Below are positions 307 to 4,258 of a stretch of DNA of 4,395 nt, piece after piece. Within the stretch, counting starts at the first letter, position 1. Each line of letters starts with the position of its first letter. This stretch comes from a virus (Duplodnaviria; Heunggongvirae; Uroviricota; Caudoviricetes), in the IMG/VR virus record IMGVR_UViG_2778261572_000003, positions 1 through 4,395 of that record; one strand, written 5' to 3'. A program made the translations under genes and the position numbers. The notes under the pieces are model-generated. The model was not told the origin of the DNA. It searched no databases and saw nothing but the letters and a program-made list of their open reading frames with translations.

Positions 307-663
307 TTACTCGAGAGGAAATTGGTTATGGATACAATCAAGTTTTCTTGCCCAGAATGTGGTGGCGAAGTCTTTGACACATCCTTTAAGCCGCAGGGCT
401 CTGACAGTTTCGCGGGAGCCATCTGCAAAAATTGTGGTCACCTTGTAACTGAAGATTAGTCCTCGCAGTTCGATGACGAAATCGTTGACAATATCTTCGG
501 TGCACTCACCAGAGACTTTCTGAAATAAAGACGCATACCGCTTAGTTACCGCTCTGATAACTCTTACCTGTCCGGCAATGGCGCTGATGTCAATATAAAG
601 CGCCATTGCTGCTTCTTTGCCGATCCCGTGATGCCTTCCATTCTGATGTTTGACTTCGCCCAC
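307..663 (-). CDS. Hypothetical protein, 118 aa from GTG 661-663 (alternative ATG at 604-606 gives 99 aa); coding status uncertain
   Basis: Only long ORF in 300-800. GTG start is preceded by GAGG 8 nt upstream. It lies downstream of a candidate repressor-controlled leftward promoter at 746-774. Against it: 8 of its 10 Arg codons are rare (AGA/AGG/CGG/CGA), and its C-terminal third is exactly antisense, in codon register, to a zinc-ribbon ORF on the plus strand. The neighbouring 17..235 gene also uses rare Arg codons, so codon usage is not decisive. Confidence 0.4.
   Translation of the reverse strand: MGEVKHQNGRHHGIGKEAAMALYIDISAIAGQVRVIRAVTKRYASLFQKVSGECTEDIVNDFVIELRGLIFSYKVTTIFADGSRETVRALRLKGCVKDFATTFWARKLDCIHNQFPLE
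328..459 (+). CDS. Candidate small zinc-ribbon protein, 43 aa (MDTIKFSCPECGGEVFDTSFKPQGSDSFAGAICKNCGHLVTED), nested antisense in the 307..663 ORF
   Basis: ATG at 328 with GAGAGGAA (313-320) upstream, TAG at 457-459. Two CxxC knuckles (C8/C11 and C33/C36) are spaced as in a zinc ribbon. Codon choice is E. coli-like (GAA, GGT, GGC, CCG, CAG, ATC, AAA). No convincing sigma70 promoter was found in 236-327, and it lies inside a putative leftward operon, so it remains a candidate only. Confidence 0.3.
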   Translation: MDTIKFSCPECGGEVFDTSFKPQGSDSFAGAICKNCGHLVTED

Positions 664-845: not shown

Positions 846-1256
846 TTATTGTTTTTGAATATCATTGATTATGTCGTATACATCGTTTTTTAGAAGATCC
901 ATTTCATGAAGAATGCTTTTTGTGTGCATGATTAGTCTCAGCTTTTCCGTTTCTGGCAACTGATTAAAAAGGGACAATAGCGCCTTTTCTTTGTCGTCAA
1001 GCTGGATTAGTGGTGGTGCATCTTCTTCCTTTGAATGTTCATTTAGCGGCATAAAAAACCAATGTTCTGGTTTTCCTGTTACTGCGGCAAGTCTTTTTAA
1101 TCTTTCTCCGCTGGCAATGGTTTCTCCTGTTGCCCACTTACGCACAGCGGTATGGGACAGCATAACCTTTTTAGCCAGACCGGCTAACGACCAGCCATGT
1201 TCGCTCATTGCTTGCCGAACTCTCTCAGCAAATATTGGATGGTTTATTTTACTCAT
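846..1256 (-). CDS. Prophage repressor, XRE-family HTH, DicA/RacR-like short type without a peptidase S24 domain
   Basis: 136 aa. An HTH is visible at about residues 22-42 (SLAGLAKKVMLSHTAVRKWATGE). The C-terminal segment LLSLFNQLPETEKL resembles the DicA-type C-terminus as I recall it. It faces the Cro-like gene across an operator-rich intergenic region. There is no SD, and a TATACT -10 lies about 7 nt upstream of the ATG, consistent with a leaderless mRNA. Confidence 0.85.
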   Translation of the reverse strand: MSKINHPIFAERVRQAMSEHGWSLAGLAKKVMLSHTAVRKWATGETIASGERLKRLAAVTGKPEHWFFMPLNEHSKEEDAPPLIQLDDKEKALLSLFNQLPETEKLRLIMHTKSILHEMDLLKNDVYDIINDIQKQ

Positions 1257-1368
1257 TTTTTAAGTATACAACCAAAGGTTTCACCAATCAGCAAAACTAT
1301 AGGTTTTGTGTTGAAACTTATAGTTTTTGATGGTAGCGTAGGTGAAATTAATAGTACTGGTGGAAAGT
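1257..1368. promoter_or_regulatory. Divergent promoter/operator region (pRM-like leftward, pR-like rightward) with three related operator sites
   Basis: Operators of form AAAAC-N5-GTTTT: AAAACTATAGGTTTT (1293-1307), AAACTTATAGTTTTT (1314-1328), and a degenerate copy ACAACCAAAGGTTTC (1268-1282, 11/15). Centres are 21-25 bp apart. Rightward candidate: -35 TTGAAA (1311-1316), 17-bp spacer, extended -10 TGgTAGCGT (1331-1339). Leftward candidate: -10 TATACT (complement of 1263-1268) with a weak -35. Confidence 0.65.
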
Positions 1369-1644
1369 ATGAGTAATCAAATTCACGATAAGATCTCTAA
1401 AAAAATGTCGAAAACTGACATTGGCAAACACTTTGGCATTAGCTCCCAGGCCGTAGGCAAGTGGTTCATTAAAGGCAAGGTTCCTGCTGAACGCGTGTCG
1501 TCACTCTGTGCATTACTGAATTGGGAAATTACTCCCCACGAACTTCGCCCTGACATTTATCCCAACCCAACAGATGGACTACCTTGTGGAAATAAGTGTA
1601 TGTCGAATGAATCACTGGCGGTGAACAATGATATTCACTCCTGA
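1369..1644 (+). CDS. Cro-like / YdaS-family HTH protein, 91 aa from ATG 1369
   Basis: HTH (IGKHFGISSQAVGKWF) followed by the HELRPD motif I associate with the YdaS/Cro-like family. ATG 1369 is preceded by GGTGG (1359-1363). The ORF-track start at 1342 (GTG) lies upstream of the predicted transcription start, so 1369 is preferred. An ATG at 1405 is also possible but has no SD. Stop TGA at 1642-1644 overlaps the next gene. Confidence 0.75.
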   Translation: MSNQIHDKISKKMSKTDIGKHFGISSQAVGKWFIKGKVPAERVSSLCALLNWEITPHELRPDIYPNPTDGLPCGNKCMSNESLAVNNDIHS

Positions 1645-2149
1645 GCAGGCTCGCGAGGCTCTGGATGCCTGGGTATGCCGACCAGGAATGACGCAGGAGC
1701 AGGCGACGATATTAATCACGGAAGCATTCTGGGCTCTGAAAGAACGCCCGAACATCGATGTTCAACGCGTCACGTTTGATGATGGCGCGGTTGATCAACG
1801 GGCGCTGGGCGTTAACCGGGTGAAGATATTCGAACGCTGGAAAGCGATCGACACCAGGGATAAGCGGGAAAAATTCACGGCGTTGATTCCGGCAATCATG
1901 GAGGCTATCCGGATAAGTGATTTCAGGTTGTATTGTGAAATTACTGATGGAAAAAGCATTACGTACATGCTCGCCGGGTTAAATAAAGAATATGGCGATG
2001 TGGTGGAGTCCGGTCTGCTTTTGGCAGATCCCGCTGTTGTGGAGCGCGAGACTGACGAGCTTATAGAAAAAGCTATTGCTTTCAAGCATGCGTATCGTCA
2101 GCAATATCAACAAAAAGCCGGATGGAATTATGAGTCTTCTTTTTGCTGA
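1628..2149 (+). CDS. YdaT-family protein (CII-position regulator; annotated in databases as putative toxin YdaT), 173 aa
   Basis: Sits second in the rightward operon with a 17-nt overlap onto the Cro-like gene. The segment KIFERWKAIDTRDKREKFTALIPAIMEAI matches my recollection of the conserved YdaT core. The family call is from memory, not a search. Confidence 0.7.
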   Translation: MIFTPEQAREALDAWVCRPGMTQEQATILITEAFWALKERPNIDVQRVTFDDGAVDQRALGVNRVKIFERWKAIDTRDKREKFTALIPAIMEAIRISDFRLYCEITDGKSITYMLAGLNKEYGDVVESGLLLADPAVVERETDELIEKAIAFKHAYRQQYQQKAGWNYESSFC

Positions 2150-3095
2150 ACGCCCACTGGTTATTAACACGCAGCTGGCGATGAAAATTGGTCTGAACGA
2201 AGCCATCGTGTTGCAGCAGCTGCATTACTGGTTGAGAGATACCGGTTCCGGCATGGAATGTGATGGTGTTCGCTGGATTTATAATACAACAGAACAATGG
2301 CTGGAACAGTTCCCGTTCTGGTCAGAGTCAACGTTAAAACGCGCATTTGCAAGTCTGAAAGCGCTGGGGCTTTTGCGTTGCGAAAAGCTCAACAAATCAA
2401 AGCGTGACATGACTAATTTTTACACGATTAATTACGAGAGCGAGCTTTTAGATGGTGGCAAAGTGAGCGAATCCATCAGGTCAAAATGCGCCGCTCCATC
2501 AGGTCAAAATGACACGATGGAAGAGGCCAAAATGACACGCTCCATTGGTTCAAAACGACACAATGTCATCGGGTCAAAATGGCCTGATGATCTTACAGAG
2601 AATACAACAGAGATTACTACAGAGAATAAAAACACTTCTCGTCCGGAAGCTTCGCAACCGGACATGCAGACGGCTGAACAGGATTTTTTAAACCGACACC
2701 CTGACGCGGTTGTGTTCAGTGCGAAAAAACGCCAGTGGGGCAGCCAGGAAGATTTAGCGTGTGCGCAGTGGATCTGGGGACGAATCGTGAGTCTTTACGA
2801 GCAGGCTGCCAGCGATGATGGCGAAATCATGCGACCGAAAGAACCCAACTGGACTGCATGGGCCAATGATGTGCGCACAATGCGGATGCTGGATGGCAGA
2901 ACTCACAGACAAATTTGCGAAATGTTTGGTCGGGTACAGCGGGATCCATTCTGGGTAAAAAACGTCATGAGCCCGTCAAAGCTTCGCGAAAAATGGGATG
3001 AGCTGGTTATTCGTCTGGGGCGTTCACCTGTACAGCGTTGCGTGAATCACATTTCTGAACCGGACACCGAAATTCCGCCGGGATTCAGGGGGTAA
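2130..3095 (+). CDS. Replication initiation protein, lambda O-like / YdaU-position, 321 aa from ATG 2130
   Basis: The ORF opens at 2076, but 2130 is the first ATG that minimises overlap with the upstream gene, giving a 20-nt overlap. The N-terminal domain looks like a winged-helix DNA binder. The gene contains five 23-bp iterons and an adjacent AT-rich repeat block, as lambda ori sits within O. It is immediately followed by a DnaC-like loader. Confidence 0.8.
   Translation: MSLLFAERPLVINTQLAMKIGLNEAIVLQQLHYWLRDTGSGMECDGVRWIYNTTEQWLEQFPFWSESTLKRAFASLKALGLLRCEKLNKSKRDMTNFYTINYESELLDGGKVSESIRSKCAAPSGQNDTMEEAKMTRSIGSKRHNVIGSKWPDDLTENTTEITTENKNTSRPEASQPDMQTAEQDFLNRHPDAVVFSAKKRQWGSQEDLACAQWIWGRIVSLYEQAASDDGEIMRPKEPNWTAWANDVRTMRMLDGRTHRQICEMFGRVQRDPFWVKNVMSPSKLREKWDELVIRLGRSPVQRCVNHISEPDTEIPPGFRG
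2472..2584. repeat. Five direct iterons (23-bp period), putative prophage replication origin inside the initiator gene
   Basis: TCCATCAGGTCAAAATG occurs exactly at 2472-2488 and 2495-2511. Related copies have cores GGCCAAAATGACACG (2525-2539), GGTTCAAAACGACAC (2547-2561) and GGTCAAAATGG (2572-2582). Core starts are 2479, 2502, 2525, 2547/2548 and 2572. Confidence 0.8.
2594..2633. repeat. AT-rich block with three 12-bp tandem repeats (ACAGAGA core), candidate DNA-unwinding element next to the iterons
   Basis: The ACAGAGA core recurs at 2595-2601, 2607-2613 and 2619-2625 with a 12-bp period, in an AT-rich stretch immediately downstream of the iterons. It encodes the repetitive peptide LTENTTEITTENKN. 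Confidence 0.5.
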
Positions 3096-3101
3096 CGAAG
3101 C

Positions 3102-3848
3102 ATGAAAAATATTGCGACAGGCGGTGTTCTTGAACGCATCCGTAAGCTGGCTCCGCAGCATGTAACCGCGCCATACCGAACAGTGGACGAGTGGCGCGAG
3201 TGGCAACTTGCAGAAGGCCAGAAGCGTTGCGAGGAGATCAACCGCCAGAATCGTCAGTTGCGGGTGGAAAAAATTCTGAATCGCTCCGGCATCCAGCCGT
3301 TGCACCGCAAGTGCTCGTTTGCGAATTACCAGGTGCAGAATGACGGCCAGCGATACGCGTTGAGCCAGGCGAAATCCATCGCCGATGAACTGATGACCGG
3401 ATGCACAAATTTCGCATTCAGCGGAAAACCTGGTACCGGGAAAAACCACTTAGCGGCGGCTATCGGAAATCGCCTGCTGAAAGATGGCCAGACAGTGATT
3501 GTGGTTACCGTGGCTGATGTTATGAGTGCTCTACACGCCAGCTATGACGACGGGCAATCAGGCGAAAAATTTTTGCGGGAACTGTGCGAAGTGGATCTGC
3601 TGATTCTTGATGAAATTGGCATTCAGCGCGAGACGAAAAACGAGCAGGTGGTACTGCACCAGATTGTTGATCGCCGGACAGCGTCGATGCGCAGCGTGGG
3701 AATGCTGACAAACCTGAACTATGAGGCCATGAAAACGCTGCTCGGCGAGCGGATTATGGATCGCATGACCATGAACGGCGGGCGATGGGTGAGTTTTAAC
3801 TGGGAGAGCTGGCGTTCAAATGTCGGCTATTTGAGGGTTGTTAAGTAA
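3102..3848 (+). CDS. DnaC-family replicative helicase loader (AAA+ ATPase), prophage copy, 248 aa
   Basis: Walker A GKPGTGKN at 3423-3446 and Walker B DLLILDEIG. Similarity to host DnaC, as I recall its sequence, runs along the whole length (MKN..., NRSGIQPLH, CSFANY, FSGKPGTGKNHLAAAI, VDRR, GMLTN, LLGERIMDRM, FNW). SD GGGGG at 3087-3091. Start is 7 nt after the initiator stop. Confidence 0.93.
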   Translation: MKNIATGGVLERIRKLAPQHVTAPYRTVDEWREWQLAEGQKRCEEINRQNRQLRVEKILNRSGIQPLHRKCSFANYQVQNDGQRYALSQAKSIADELMTGCTNFAFSGKPGTGKNHLAAAIGNRLLKDGQTVIVVTVADVMSALHASYDDGQSGEKFLRELCEVDLLILDEIGIQRETKNEQVVLHQIVDRRTASMRSVGMLTNLNYEAMKTLLGERIMDRMTMNGGRWVSFNWESWRSNVGYLRVVK

Positions 3849-3862
3849 TTTCATGAGGGCTT

Positions 3863-4258
3863 ATGGCAAAACCTTTTACACCCGAACAGCGGGAAGAGCT
3901 GAAGGCACGAATTATCGGGTTGGTACGCAAAAATGGACGCATGACGATGTCGCAACTGGAGAGAGCGACGGGAGCTGGCTGGCATTCGGTCCGACGCTGC
4001 CTTGTGGATGTACTGGCTTGTGGTGATTTATACATGTCCGGGGAATACGGTGTTTTTGCATCAGAGCAGGCGTATCGTGAATGGCGTAAGACACCGGAGA
4101 AAACAACTGACCAGACACTGATTCGAAAGTTACCAGACGGAGAAATACGCCGCTACGACAGACACCTGAACATAATTTGCCGTGAGTGCCGGAAGAGTGA
4201 AGTTATGCAGCGAGTGCTGGCGTTCTATCAGGGAGATTTTCAGGAGGTGATGGAGTGA
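3863..4258 (+). CDS. Hypothetical protein, 131 aa, with a possible N-terminal winged-helix-like segment
   Basis: ATG 3863 with AGGG 4 nt upstream. Same strand and tight spacing after the DnaC-like gene. Residues 10-55 (ELKARIIGLVRKNGRMTMSQLERATGAGWHSVRRCLVDVL) look like a wHTH. One CxxC at the C-terminus. No family recognised. Confidence 0.65.
   Translation: MAKPFTPEQREELKARIIGLVRKNGRMTMSQLERATGAGWHSVRRCLVDVLACGDLYMSGEYGVFASEQAYREWRKTPEKTTDQTLIRKLPDGEIRRYDRHLNIICRECRKSEVMQRVLAFYQGDFQEVME

What the first reader, a model, noticed from the sequence alone, without database searches (positions are those of the whole stretch)
2472..2633. Replication origin embedded in the initiator gene: five 23-bp iterons plus a 12-bp-repeat AT-rich block
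Two exact 17-bp copies and three close variants at a regular 23-bp period are followed by three 12-bp ACAGAGA repeats in an AT-rich stretch. This is the lambda-style ori-within-O arrangement. The repeats are also translated, producing a repetitive linker (SIRSK...GSKR...GSKW, then TENTTEITTEN) in the initiator.
Basis: partly seen in the sequence, partly recalled or inferred. Interest (0 to 1): 0.5.

Follow-up and report, generated by a model that had tools for sequence, protein, structure and literature searches.

The report
Phage replication origin inside initiator gene
This is a lambda-style replication origin sitting inside a prophage's own initiator gene, which is an ordinary arrangement, but its presumed unwinding block is a 12-base motif that recurs almost letter for letter beside unrelated initiator-binding repeats in phages of bacteria as distant as E. 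coli and Staphylococcus.

Summary
The window is a Rac/mEp460-like lambdoid prophage module: repressor, cro-like, cII-like, initiator (2130-3095), DnaC-like loader.

Inside the initiator gene lie six, not five, dyad-symmetric repeats with a 23-bp period (2451-2589). Three 12-nt units, ACAGAGAnTACn, follow at 2595-2630.

Four results show selection on the DNA rather than the peptide:
- The repeat core is translated in all three frames.
- Across 60 alleles, third-codon diversity falls from 0.14-0.19 to 0.03 in the iterons and 0.01 in the 12-mers. First and second positions do not fall.
- The encoded peptide is predicted disordered.
- Natural alleles lack exactly four repeat periods (93 nt).

The C-terminal half is homologous to lambda O (E=3e-27), and this places the 12-mer block where lambda has its AT-rich region.

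One result goes beyond the finding. The same 12-mer lies next to about 40 unrelated iteron types, in phages from Staphylococcus and Bacillus to Pseudomonas. Its codons are fixed (GAG 72/72) whatever the GC content, and I found no description of it.

Verdict: a new member of a known kind, with one potentially novel conserved cis-element.

The parts
2130..3095 (+). Initiator gene (321 aa). RefSeq calls it 'hypothetical protein' and it has no Pfam domain.
   Evidence: ORF. An identical CDS is annotated in E. coli TUM1881. phrog_391 'replication initiation O-like', E=3e-96. No Pfam hit. 4286 homologues; the best 120 listed are unnamed and have no Pfam hit of their own (PF06254/PF17761 appear only on four longer products).
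2130..2450 (+). N-terminal domain (aa 1-107), the presumed iteron-binding winged-helix domain.
   Evidence: AF2 model gives helix-helix-strand-strand-helix-helix at pLDDT 60-72. Top Foldseek hits are RepA_N plasmid initiators 4pql, 5kbj and 4pt7, but they are weak (E 0.04-0.12). P9, Y33, W34 and L76 are nearly invariant across 39 motif-bearing initiators.
2451..2473 (+). Iteron 0, degenerate in this window (12 of 23 match the consensus).
   Evidence: It is a good copy in relatives, GATGARGTCAAAGTGACCAAATC. The lag-23 maximum starts at 2449.
2474..2496 (+). Iteron 1, CATCAGGTCAAAATGCGCCGCTC.
   Evidence: 78% to the reference copy.
2497..2519 (+). Iteron 2, CATCAGGTCAAAATGACACGATG. This is the best dyad and equals the reference copy.
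   Evidence: It forms a hairpin when folded as single-stranded DNA.
2520..2542 (+). Iteron 3, GAAGAGGCCAAAATGACACGCTC.
   Evidence: 74%.
2543..2565 (+). Iteron 4, CATTGGTTCAAAACGACACAATG.
   Evidence: 78%.
2567..2589 (+). Iteron 5, CATCGGGTCAAAATGGCCTGATG. It is a near-perfect dyad and overlaps a GATC at 2589-2592.
   Evidence: 83%; hairpin.
2595..2630 (+). Three tandem 12-nt units ACAGAGAnTACn, the presumed DNA-unwinding and strand-capture element. They are positionally equivalent to lambda's AT-rich region.
   Evidence: Third-codon diversity here is 0.009. The same motif occurs next to about 40 unrelated iteron types. Codon-independent invariance is shown.
2382..2654 (+). Region encoding the predicted disordered linker (aa 85-175). 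It contains the whole origin.
   Evidence: pLDDT about 25-48 over aa 85-175. In pSK41 Rep the origin-encoded central domain is a dispensable linker (PMC5703833).
2655..3020 (+). Lambda-O-like C-terminal domain, presumed to recruit the loader and helicase.
   Evidence: BLASTP against lambda O gives 35% identity over aa 147-294, E=3e-27. The module is exchanged independently of the N-terminal half, with the breakpoint at about 2628/2629.
3030..3092 (+). C-terminal tail VNHISEPDTEIPPGFRG, matching the C-terminal tail of E. coli DnaT.
   Evidence: PDB sequence hits 2ru8, 6aep and 9zbt. NCBIfam DnaT positions 160-179. The same tail is the only similarity to Rac YdaU.
3102..3848 (+). DnaC-like helicase loader (YdaV type).
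   Evidence: PRK12377, E=3.6e-153. E. coli DnaC 6qel, E=6.7e-76. 95% identical to Rac YdaV.
846..2149 (.). Upstream immunity and early-right genes: cI-like HTH repressor (846-1256, minus strand), YdaS/cro-like (1369-1644, plus) and YdaT/cII-like (1628-2149, plus). Rightward transcription from here would run through the origin.
   Evidence: Pfam HTH_3, YdaS_toxin and YdaT_toxin; phrog_163 'CII-like'. The promoter itself was not found by the simple scan, so transcription through the origin is inferred from gene order.

Best explanation
Positions 2451-2633 are the vegetative (theta) replication origin of a lambdoid prophage, embedded in the linker-coding part of its initiator gene.

Proposed mechanism:
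1. Dimers of the initiator's N-terminal winged-helix domain bind the six dyad-symmetric iterons (consensus CATCAGGTCA-AAA-TGACCYGATG, 23-bp period). The strongest sites are copies 2 and 5. Together they form an O-some-like bent nucleoprotein complex.
2. This complex destabilises the adjacent three ACAGAGAnTACn units (2595-2630). These are the least stable stretch of the gene and carry no secondary structure as single strands.
3. The C-terminal lambda-O-like domain, with its DnaT-like tail, brings in host DnaB through the phage DnaC-like loader encoded next door.

The peptide encoded by the origin is only a flexible linker between the two domains.

Shown here: the repeats and their anatomy; DNA-level rather than peptide-level selection on them; homology and position relative to lambda O and its origin; co-variation of iterons with the N-terminal domain; and conservation of the 12-mer.

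Inferred: binding, unwinding at the 12-mers, loader recruitment, and activation by rightward transcription.
For: Repeats and their significance.

DNA-level selection:
- The 23-nt period makes the same core GGTCAAAATGA read in all three frames (SIRSKC / PSGQND / EEAKMT).
- In 60 distinct alleles (at least 90.7% identical), third-position diversity is 0.029 in the iterons and 0.009 in the 12-mers, against 0.138 and 0.186 in the flanking domains. First and second positions are not lower (0.042 against 0.013 and 0.025).
- Variable third positions number 15 of 61 inside 2451-2633 and 158 of 260 outside (Fisher p=3.5e-7). The lowest third-position sliding windows in the gene start at 2481-2508.

Initiator identity: phrog_391, 3e-96; lambda O C-terminal homology, E=3e-27, aligning TENTTEITTEN with lambda's TKDTITKEKRK, which is the AT-rich region.

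Neighbour: DnaC homologue.

Iteron form: dyads converging on an A-tract, as in lambda and RepA_N iterons (PMC7145576). Overall consensus is 16 of 23 self-complementary. Hairpins form in single-strand folding, z=-2.6.

Conservation: the six-copy array is kept in mEp460_4F5, Klebsiella, Citrobacter, Enterobacter, Raoultella and Izhakiella relatives, and a comparable array in register in Trabulsiella, down to 53% protein identity.

Co-variation: relatives with other N-terminal domains carry other iterons (AAACCCAATTTCG in Stx2_14040; TTGACCCGTCAA at a 15-bp period in the O104:H4 prophage).

Modularity: N-terminal domain, iterons and 12-mers move as one unit, with the breakpoint at window 2628/2629.

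Linker: aa 85-175 is predicted disordered.

Iteron-number variation: 290-aa alleles lack exactly 93 nt, from copy 1 to copy 5. One relative has four 12-mers (L011).

12-mer block: least stable 40-mer in the gene. It occurs immediately 3' of about 40 unrelated iteron types.
Against: - There is no experimental evidence for this element or any close relative. The open-access literature searches, which did not search for this family by name, turned up none.
- The block is only 65-69% A+T, and two intergenic regions of the window (about 830-870 and 1230-1270) are thermodynamically less stable.
- Three of the six iterons are poor matches (copies 0, 3 and 4).
- The structural model is of low confidence (mean pLDDT 54) and the fold matches are weak (E of 0.04 or more). 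The DNA-binding role of the N-terminal domain therefore rests mainly on analogy and co-variation.
- Low synonymous diversity could be partly inflated by recent recombination at this module junction, although the undiminished first- and second-position diversity argues against that.
- Many carriers are probably defective prophages, so the origin may be inactive in this particular copy.
Confidence: 0.85

Rival explanations
1. The repeats are only a repetitive, low-complexity protein linker produced by slippage. They have no function as DNA.
For: The region is translated and predicted disordered. T/E-rich linkers with similar peptides exist in unrelated proteins.
Against: A 23-nt period cannot be a peptide repeat, because the core is read in three frames. 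Synonymous sites are frozen while amino-acid-changing sites vary. In the 12-mer, Glu is GAG in 72 of 72 cases and Thr is ACA in 69 of 72, across contigs of GC 0.30-0.63. The same genes use GAG 42% and ACA 28% of the time elsewhere, and the middle base of the third codon is free. The unrelated T/E linkers use mixed codons.
Confidence: 0.02
2. The iterons are operator or titration sites, used for autoregulation, copy-number control, incompatibility or exclusion of related phages. The place where replication actually starts is elsewhere, for example in the AT-rich intergenic immunity region.
For: Intergenic regions at about 830-870 and 1230-1330 are less stable than the 12-mer block. Cloned lambda origin copies do inhibit related phages (abstracts of PMC3349717 and PMC4488673), so iteron arrays can have control roles.
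Against: No iteron-like site lies outside the array in the window. The arrangement of iterons followed by a conserved easily-melted block, in the linker of an O-like initiator next to a helicase loader, matches the mapped origins of lambda, P22, SPP1 and pSK41. A control role would be additional to origin function, not an alternative to it.
Confidence: 0.06
3. The 12-mer block is conserved mainly as a recombination linker, a shared micro-homology at the junction between exchangeable N-terminal and C-terminal modules. It is not the unwinding element.
For: Similarity to relatives breaks exactly at the block. Klebsiella phages match query 58-499, other E. coli prophages match 500-966, and Stx phages share only the 40 bp of the block at 97.5%.
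Against: Homologous recombination within one gene pool cannot keep the same 12-mer in Staphylococcus, Bacillus, Acinetobacter, Pseudomonas, Burkholderia and E. coli phages whose flanks are unrelated. The block also occupies the place of lambda's functional AT-rich region. Serving as a junction is probably a by-product of the conservation.
Confidence: 0.05
4. The 12-mer acts at another level than duplex melting. It could be a priming signal: the invariant CAG gives CTG, the E. coli DnaG recognition triplet (own knowledge), on the other strand once per unit. Or it could act as RNA, for example a purine-rich transcript forming an R-loop during transcriptional activation.
For: Invariance is base-specific, not just A+T richness. 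Orientation relative to transcription is constant in 38 of 41 contexts. Lambda's origin needs transcription (PMC5043065).
Against: Primase triplet preferences differ between phyla (own knowledge), whereas the motif does not. An occurrence in a plasmid intergenic region with no ORF does not distinguish the DNA level from the RNA level.
Confidence: 0.12

Closest known systems
Bacteriophage lambda ori-lambda within gene O (with P as loader)
   Same: - The origin lies in the middle of the initiator gene.
- Tandem dyad-symmetric iterons have a central A-tract (lambda TCCCTCAAAACGAGGGA; here CAGGTCAAAATGACCTG).
- An easily melted block follows on the distal side.
- The origin-encoded peptide is a linker.
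- The C-terminal domain is homologous (35% identity, E=3e-27).
- The helicase loader gene comes next, and the cII-like gene lies upstream.
   Different: - Six iterons with a 23-bp period, against four 18-bp iterons spaced 20-24 bp.
- The N-terminal domain is not of the Phage_rep_O family (no Pfam hit).
- The loader is a DnaC homologue, not P.
- There is an extra DnaT-like tail.
- The melted block consists of three ACAGAGAnTACn units, not lambda's purine-strand A-rich 40 bp.
Salmonella phage P22 ori within gene 18; Bacillus phage SPP1 oriL within gene 38
   Same: Both have iterons followed by an A+T-rich block built of short repeats inside the initiator gene. P22 has 4 x ATCGGTAAAAC followed by ACAAAAGACAATAT ACAAAAGACAATAA. 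SPP1 has GAAAAAGACAC repeats followed by AACAATGATAAC repeats.
   Different: The iterons and the short-repeat motifs differ. P22 pairs with a DnaB-type helicase, and SPP1 with G39P and G40P.
RepA_N plasmid initiators (pSK41, pTZ2162) with the origin inside rep
   Same: - A winged-helix N-terminal domain binds semi-palindromic iterons that converge on a poly-A tract and lie centrally in the rep gene.
- The origin-encoded central domain is a dispensable linker.
- The C-terminal domain is host-specific and DnaD-like.
- The N-terminal domain and origin are exchanged as one module, as in pPR9 (PMC7145576, PMC5703833).
- These proteins are the best structural matches to the model of the initiator (4pql, 5kbj, 4pt7).
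   Different: There is no RepA_N Pfam match and the structural match is weak. These are plasmids of Firmicutes, and no helicase-loader gene is reported alongside rep in what I read (PMC5703833).
Rac cryptic prophage of E. coli K-12 (racR-ydaS-ydaT-ydaU-ydaV; oriJ, the latter from my own knowledge)
   Same: Gene order is the same. The loader is 95% identical to YdaV. Both have YdaS/YdaT-type early genes.
   Different: The initiator is unrelated to YdaU (DUF1376) except for the 19-aa DnaT-like tail. This window is therefore not Rac and its origin is not oriJ.
Sequence-specific unwinding elements: oriC 13-mers and DnaA-trios; single-strand DUE capture by plasmid Rep proteins
   Same: These are short repeats inside the melted region whose exact sequence matters and which the iteron- or box-bound initiator contacts as single strands (PMC5043065; abstracts of PMC4081077 and PMC10602881).
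   Different: The motif is different, and no binding data exist for ACAGAGAnTACn. Here the motif stays constant while the double-strand sites vary.

Membership tests
Lambda-type origin embedded in the initiator gene | Three or more tandem, dyad-symmetric initiator-binding repeats in the central, linker-coding part of the initiator gene | tested here: met
   Six copies with a 23-bp period at 2451-2589. Dyad symmetry is shown. The encoded segment is predicted disordered.
Lambda-type origin embedded in the initiator gene | An easily melted A+T-rich region directly adjacent to the last iteron, on the promoter-distal side | tested here: met
   2590-2635 is 65-69% A+T and is the least stable 40-mer in the gene. 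It aligns with lambda's AT-rich segment in the protein alignment.
Lambda-type origin embedded in the initiator gene | DNA-level selection on the repeats, independent of the encoded peptide | tested here: met
   Translation in three frames. Third-position diversity of 0.03 and 0.01 against 0.14-0.19, p=3.5e-7.
Lambda-type origin embedded in the initiator gene | The initiator binds the iterons and unwinds the adjacent region; the fragment supports initiator-dependent replication | not testable with these tools
   Needs EMSA or footprinting, KMnO4 probing and a mini-replicon assay.
Lambda O protein family (Pfam Phage_rep_O N-terminal domain plus O C-terminal domain) | N-terminal Phage_rep_O domain | tested here: not met
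   No Pfam family at E up to 0.01. BLASTP against lambda O finds nothing in the N-terminal half.
Lambda O protein family (Pfam Phage_rep_O N-terminal domain plus O C-terminal domain) | C-terminal domain homologous to lambda O residues about 160-270 | tested here: met
   35% identity over 148 columns, E=3e-27.
Lambda O protein family (Pfam Phage_rep_O N-terminal domain plus O C-terminal domain) | Partner gene immediately downstream is lambda P | tested here: not met
   The downstream gene is a DnaC homologue. Among relatives that carry the same 12-mer, P, DnaC-like and DnaB-like partners all occur.
RepA_N / DnaD-N-like initiators | RepA_N (PF06970) sequence signature | tested here: not met
   No Pfam hit.
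RepA_N / DnaD-N-like initiators | Winged-helix N-terminal fold like pSK41 or pTZ2162 RepA | tested here: inconclusive
   The top Foldseek hits are 4pql, 5kbj and 4pt7, but at E 0.04-0.12 and on a model with mean pLDDT 54.
RepA_N / DnaD-N-like initiators | Semi-palindromic iterons converging on a poly-A tract, located inside the rep gene | tested here: met
   CATCAGGTCA-AAA-TGACACGATG. The feature is as described in PMC7145576.
Rac prophage replication module (YdaU/YdaV, oriJ) | Initiator of the YdaU (DUF1376) type | tested here: not met
   Only the last 19 residues are similar.
Rac prophage replication module (YdaU/YdaV, oriJ) | YdaV-type DnaC-like loader | tested here: met
   95% identity to YdaV.

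The most novel reading that the evidence does not exclude
The 12-nt unit ACAGAGAnTACn, in 2-5 tandem copies, is an undescribed sequence-specific origin element and not merely AT-rich DNA. It is shared by a large superfamily of phage, prophage and phage-plasmid initiators that carry a common N-terminal 'YW' winged-helix domain. That superfamily spans Firmicutes and Proteobacteria.

The motif stays constant while the neighbouring iterons, the C-terminal domain and the helicase or loader partner all vary. The most likely reading is that a conserved surface of the iteron-bound initiator oligomer captures one strand of it, one protomer per 12 nt. This would be a phage counterpart of DnaA-trios or of Rep-ssDUE 'loop-back' binding.

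If true, the motif also gives a one-line search handle for locating origins in thousands of unannotated phage genomes.
Probability: 0.4. Interest if true: 0.7.

Novelty: new member of a known kind. Interest (0 to 1): 0.45.

Why it matters
- **Annotation.** The finding assigns a function and a cis-site to a gene that RefSeq labels 'hypothetical protein' and that has no Pfam domain. Most of the gene (at least 80%) is present in 1846 of 5426 complete E. coli genomes, and part of it in 3105.
- **Phage biology.** Knowing the origin and its specificity module helps predict replication compatibility and mosaic exchange among lambdoid prophages. Phage origins built of dyad iterons have also been reported as the in-vivo site to which the Lamassu defence sensor is recruited (bioRxiv 10.1101/2025.04.02.646746).
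- **Overlapping codes.** It is a clean natural example of a cis-element overriding codon choice.
- **The 12-mer.** If the cross-phylum motif is a specific recognition element, it makes testable an open question: how iteron-type initiators choose and hold the strand they open.

Tried and rejected
- **Pfam on the initiator:** nothing. NCBIfam gave only the DnaT tail.
- **Rfam on the whole window:** nothing.
- **Promoter and terminator scan:** nothing in or near the origin, and it did not find the expected early-right promoter.
- **Identity with Rac/oriJ:** rejected. YdaU is unrelated apart from the tail.
- **Literature search for the motif:** searches for the motif strings, their reverse complements and the peptide TEITTE returned only primers and noise, or nothing at all. 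Weaver 2009 and Weigel & Seitz 2006 are not held, so an older description cannot be excluded.
- **12-mer tied to one loader or helicase type:** rejected. Downstream genes include DnaB-type helicases (7), DnaC/IstB-like loaders (7), lambda P (3), DUF6475 (3) and others.
- **Further conserved DNA flanking the 12-mers:** rejected. GTCCGG or GTCAGG appears in only 7 of 38 cases and the preceding 5 nt vary.
- **Single-strand secondary structure in the 12-mer block:** none beyond shuffles (z about -0.5).
- **Structure route:** the available alignment was shallow (10 close sequences), the model was poor and fold matches were weak.
- **B. velezensis plasmid element as a decayed initiator gene:** no N-terminal-domain remnant was found. 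Its status is left open.
Full report
**Context.** The 4395-nt window is the immunity and early-right region of a lambdoid prophage of the Rac/mEp460 type. Its genes are as follows:
- a cI-like HTH repressor (846-1256, minus strand);
- a YdaS/cro-like gene (1369-1644);
- a YdaT/cII-like gene (1628-2149);
- a 321-aa protein (2130-3095);
- a DnaC-like ATPase (3102-3848);
- a DUF977 protein (3863-4258).

The closest complete genome match is E. coli TUM1881 (99%). There the 321-aa gene is annotated 'hypothetical protein' with the same start codon, and no origin is annotated. At least 80% of the gene is present in 1846 of 5426 complete E. coli genomes. Of 4286 homologues, the best 120 listed carry no informative name and no Pfam hit of their own.

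**The observation.**
- Exact 17-mers lie at 2472-2488 and 2495-2511.
- Five 23-nt copies start at 2474, 2497, 2520, 2543 and 2567, with spacing 23, 23, 23, 24.
- TRF reports period 23/46 arrays.
- Three 12-nt units lie at 2595-2630.
- Self-identity at lag 23 is 62 of 93. No random sequence exceeded 48 at any lag from 5 to 60.

That best window starts at 2449. Relatives show that 2451-2473 is a sixth copy that has decayed in this allele. The region is only moderately A+T-rich: GC is 0.35 against about 0.48 for the gene. It is still the least stable 40-mer inside the gene.

**DNA or peptide?** Three independent results show that selection acts on the DNA.
- A 23-nt period puts the same core GGTCAAAATGA into all three reading frames, giving unrelated peptides (SIRSKC, PSGQND, EEAKMT).
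- I compared 60 distinct alleles of identical length (at least 90.7% identical). Third-codon diversity is 0.138 in the N-terminal domain and 0.186 in the C-terminal domain. It is 0.029 in the iteron array and 0.009 in the 12-mer block. First- and second-position diversity is not reduced (0.042 against 0.013 and 0.025). Variable third positions number 15 of 61 inside 2451-2633 and 158 of 260 outside (Fisher p=3.5e-7). The minimum of a sliding third-position window falls on 2481-2508.
- AlphaFold models aa 85-175, which includes everything encoded by the repeats, as disordered.

The codon signature is thus erased exactly where the repeats lie, as expected for a cis-acting site that overlaps a tolerant linker.

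**What the protein is.** PHROGs place it in 'replication initiation O-like' families (phrog_391, E=3e-96). BLASTP against lambda O aligns residues 147-294 with lambda O 135-270 (35% identity, E=3e-27).

In that alignment the peptide DDLTENTTEITTEN pairs with lambda's GDTKDTITKEKRKD, the translation of lambda's AT-rich origin segment. The 12-mer block therefore occupies the same position as lambda's unwinding region, and the iterons lie just upstream in both.

The N-terminal half is not lambda-like. Its low-confidence model has a winged-helix topology. The best fold matches are weak (E 0.04-0.12) and are the RepA_N plasmid initiators 4pql, 5kbj and 4pt7. That family also carries its origin inside the rep gene. 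Its iterons are described as inverted repeats converging on a poly-A tract (PMC7145576, PMC5703833). The form here is the same: CATCAGGTCA-AAA-TGACACGATG. The consensus is 16 of 23 self-complementary, and individual copies fold as hairpins.

The next gene is a true DnaC homologue (E=6.7e-76 to 6qel) and is 95% identical to Rac YdaV.

**Comparative evidence.** The six-copy array with the same core is kept in mEp460_4F5 (80% nucleotide identity) and in Klebsiella, Citrobacter, Enterobacter, Raoultella and Izhakiella elements. Trabulsiella keeps a comparable array. Protein identity in this set falls to 53%, and each copy position has its own conserved variant.

Relatives that share the C-terminal domain but have another N-terminal domain carry other repeats. 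These are AAACCCAATTTCG in Stx2_14040 and TTGACCCGTCAA at a 15-bp period in an O104:H4 prophage.

Similarity to different relatives breaks at window 2628/2629. N-terminal domain, iterons and 12-mers therefore travel as one specificity module, and the C-terminal domain as another. This is what is known for lambda and for pSK41/pPR9.

Copy number also varies as expected for iterons. Several 290-aa alleles lack exactly 93 nt, from copy 1 to copy 5. One relative has a fourth 12-mer.

**The 12-mer is more than AT-rich DNA.** Among 105 usable contexts there were 41 different upstream sequences. Nearly all of these were obvious but mutually unrelated tandem iterons.

In 38 of the 41, the motif lies in the same frame (T-E-x-T) in the middle of a 770-1470-nt ORF. 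Contig GC ranged from 0.30 to 0.64.

In GenBank phages a 44-nt consensus found 130 records from Acinetobacter, Staphylococcus, Bacillus, Klebsiella, E. coli/Stx, Pseudomonas, Burkholderia, Erwinia, Xanthomonas, Vibrio and Geobacillus phages. Most annotated matches lie inside genes called replication initiation, O-like, DnaD-like or primosomal protein I. In plasmids it found 84 records, mostly in phage-type replication proteins.

To separate DNA conservation from peptide conservation, I scanned with a codon-agnostic pattern (ACN GAR NNN ACN, 2.5 units). I then classified hits by whether the upstream ORF matched an HMM of the shared N-terminal domain. Among 24 distinct iteron types the results were as follows:
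- The first Thr codon is ACA in 69 of 72 cases.
- Glu is GAG in 72 of 72 cases.
- The same ORFs elsewhere use ACA 28% and GAG 42% of the time.
- The third codon is A-n-T with a free middle base, so the amino acid varies (N, I, T or S) while its outer bases are fixed.

Hits outside initiators use mixed codons. Flanks of the block are not conserved.

The gene following these initiators is variously a DnaB-type helicase, a DnaC/IstB-type loader, lambda P, DUF6475 or something else. The motif is therefore not tied to a loader. It goes with the N-terminal domain, which shows nearly invariant P9, Y33, W34 and L76 across 39 members.

Lambda, P22 and SPP1 origins have other short repeats in the same place, for example ACAAAAGACAATAT twice in P22.

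I found no paper containing the motif, but key older reviews are not in the library.

**Mechanism (inferred).** Initiator dimers occupy the dyad iterons and form a bent complex. The adjacent 12-mer units open. The constant motif beside variable iterons suggests that a conserved surface of the initiator oligomer holds one strand, in the way DnaA and plasmid Rep proteins contact specific single strands in their unwinding elements (abstracts of PMC4081077 and PMC10602881; PMC5043065). The lambda-O-like C-terminal domain and its DnaT-like tail then deliver DnaB through the DnaC-like loader. Rightward early transcription would pass through the origin as in lambda, but the promoter was not detected by the simple scan.

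**Verdict.** This is an uncharacterised member of the well-known class of origins embedded in initiator genes, so the finding as stated is ordinary. The cross-phylum, codon-overriding 12-mer is the part worth following up.

Noticed in passing
window 3030-3092 (aa 301-321): The initiator ends in VNHISEPDTEIPPGFRG, which matches the extreme C-terminus of E. coli DnaT (PDB 2ru8, 6aep, 9zbt). The same 19-aa tail is the only similarity to Rac YdaU, whose body is unrelated. Relatives have variants ending IPAGFRG. It may be a portable peptide for engaging the DnaB-DnaC machinery, and it explains the database label 'primosomal protein I'. Some carriers, such as the O104:H4 prophage L004, have no loader gene of their own.
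   Followed up: partly
window 3102-3848 compared with L005 2984-3730: The DnaC-like loader is 95% identical to Rac YdaV although the two initiators are unrelated. The loader and the initiator body are therefore exchanged independently.
   Followed up: yes
window 2474-2566; proteins P0017, P0019, P0020, P0022, P0023: Natural 290-aa alleles carry an in-frame 93-nt deletion that removes exactly four iteron periods, by recombination between copy 1 and copy 5. This leaves two iterons. Whether these origins still fire is unknown.
   Followed up: partly
L282 (NC_022531.1, B. velezensis plasmid pBamNAU-B3a) 7260-7380; also H134, H136 and H137: Small rolling-circle Bacillus plasmids carry three CCTACAGGGAAAG-type repeats followed by three exact TACAGAGATTAC units. 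These lie in an intergenic region with no ORF in the T-E-I-T frame, and no initiator N-terminal domain is found anywhere on the plasmid. The element could be a decayed fragment, or an origin that borrows a phage initiator in trans.
   Followed up: partly
window 2628/2629: Similarity to different relatives switches exactly at the end of the 12-mer block. Stx phages with a different initiator share only these 40 bp at 97.5%. The conserved block thus doubles as a mosaic junction.
   Followed up: partly
L011 2966-3013; L191; L001 1507-1549: The number of 12-mer units varies from 2 to 5. In 38 distinct contexts the counts were 2 units in 10, 3 in 23, 4 in 4 and 5 in 1. One close relative of the window has four.
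   Followed up: yes
proteins P0005, P0007 and P0008 (448 aa): Some database entries join the YdaT-like gene and the initiator into one 448-aa product carrying PF06254. The two genes overlap by 20 nt here (2130-2149), so these are probably frameshifted or mis-called models.
   Followed up: no
window 2589-2592: A single GATC (Dam site) sits exactly between the last iteron and the first 12-mer. It is present in many enterobacterial relatives (GATGATCTTACAGAGA), while others have GATGATCCT or TGTTCTT.
   Followed up: no
window 322-459: A small ORF encodes a zinc-ribbon-like peptide (CPECGG...CKNCGH) upstream of the immunity region. It was not examined further.
   Followed up: no
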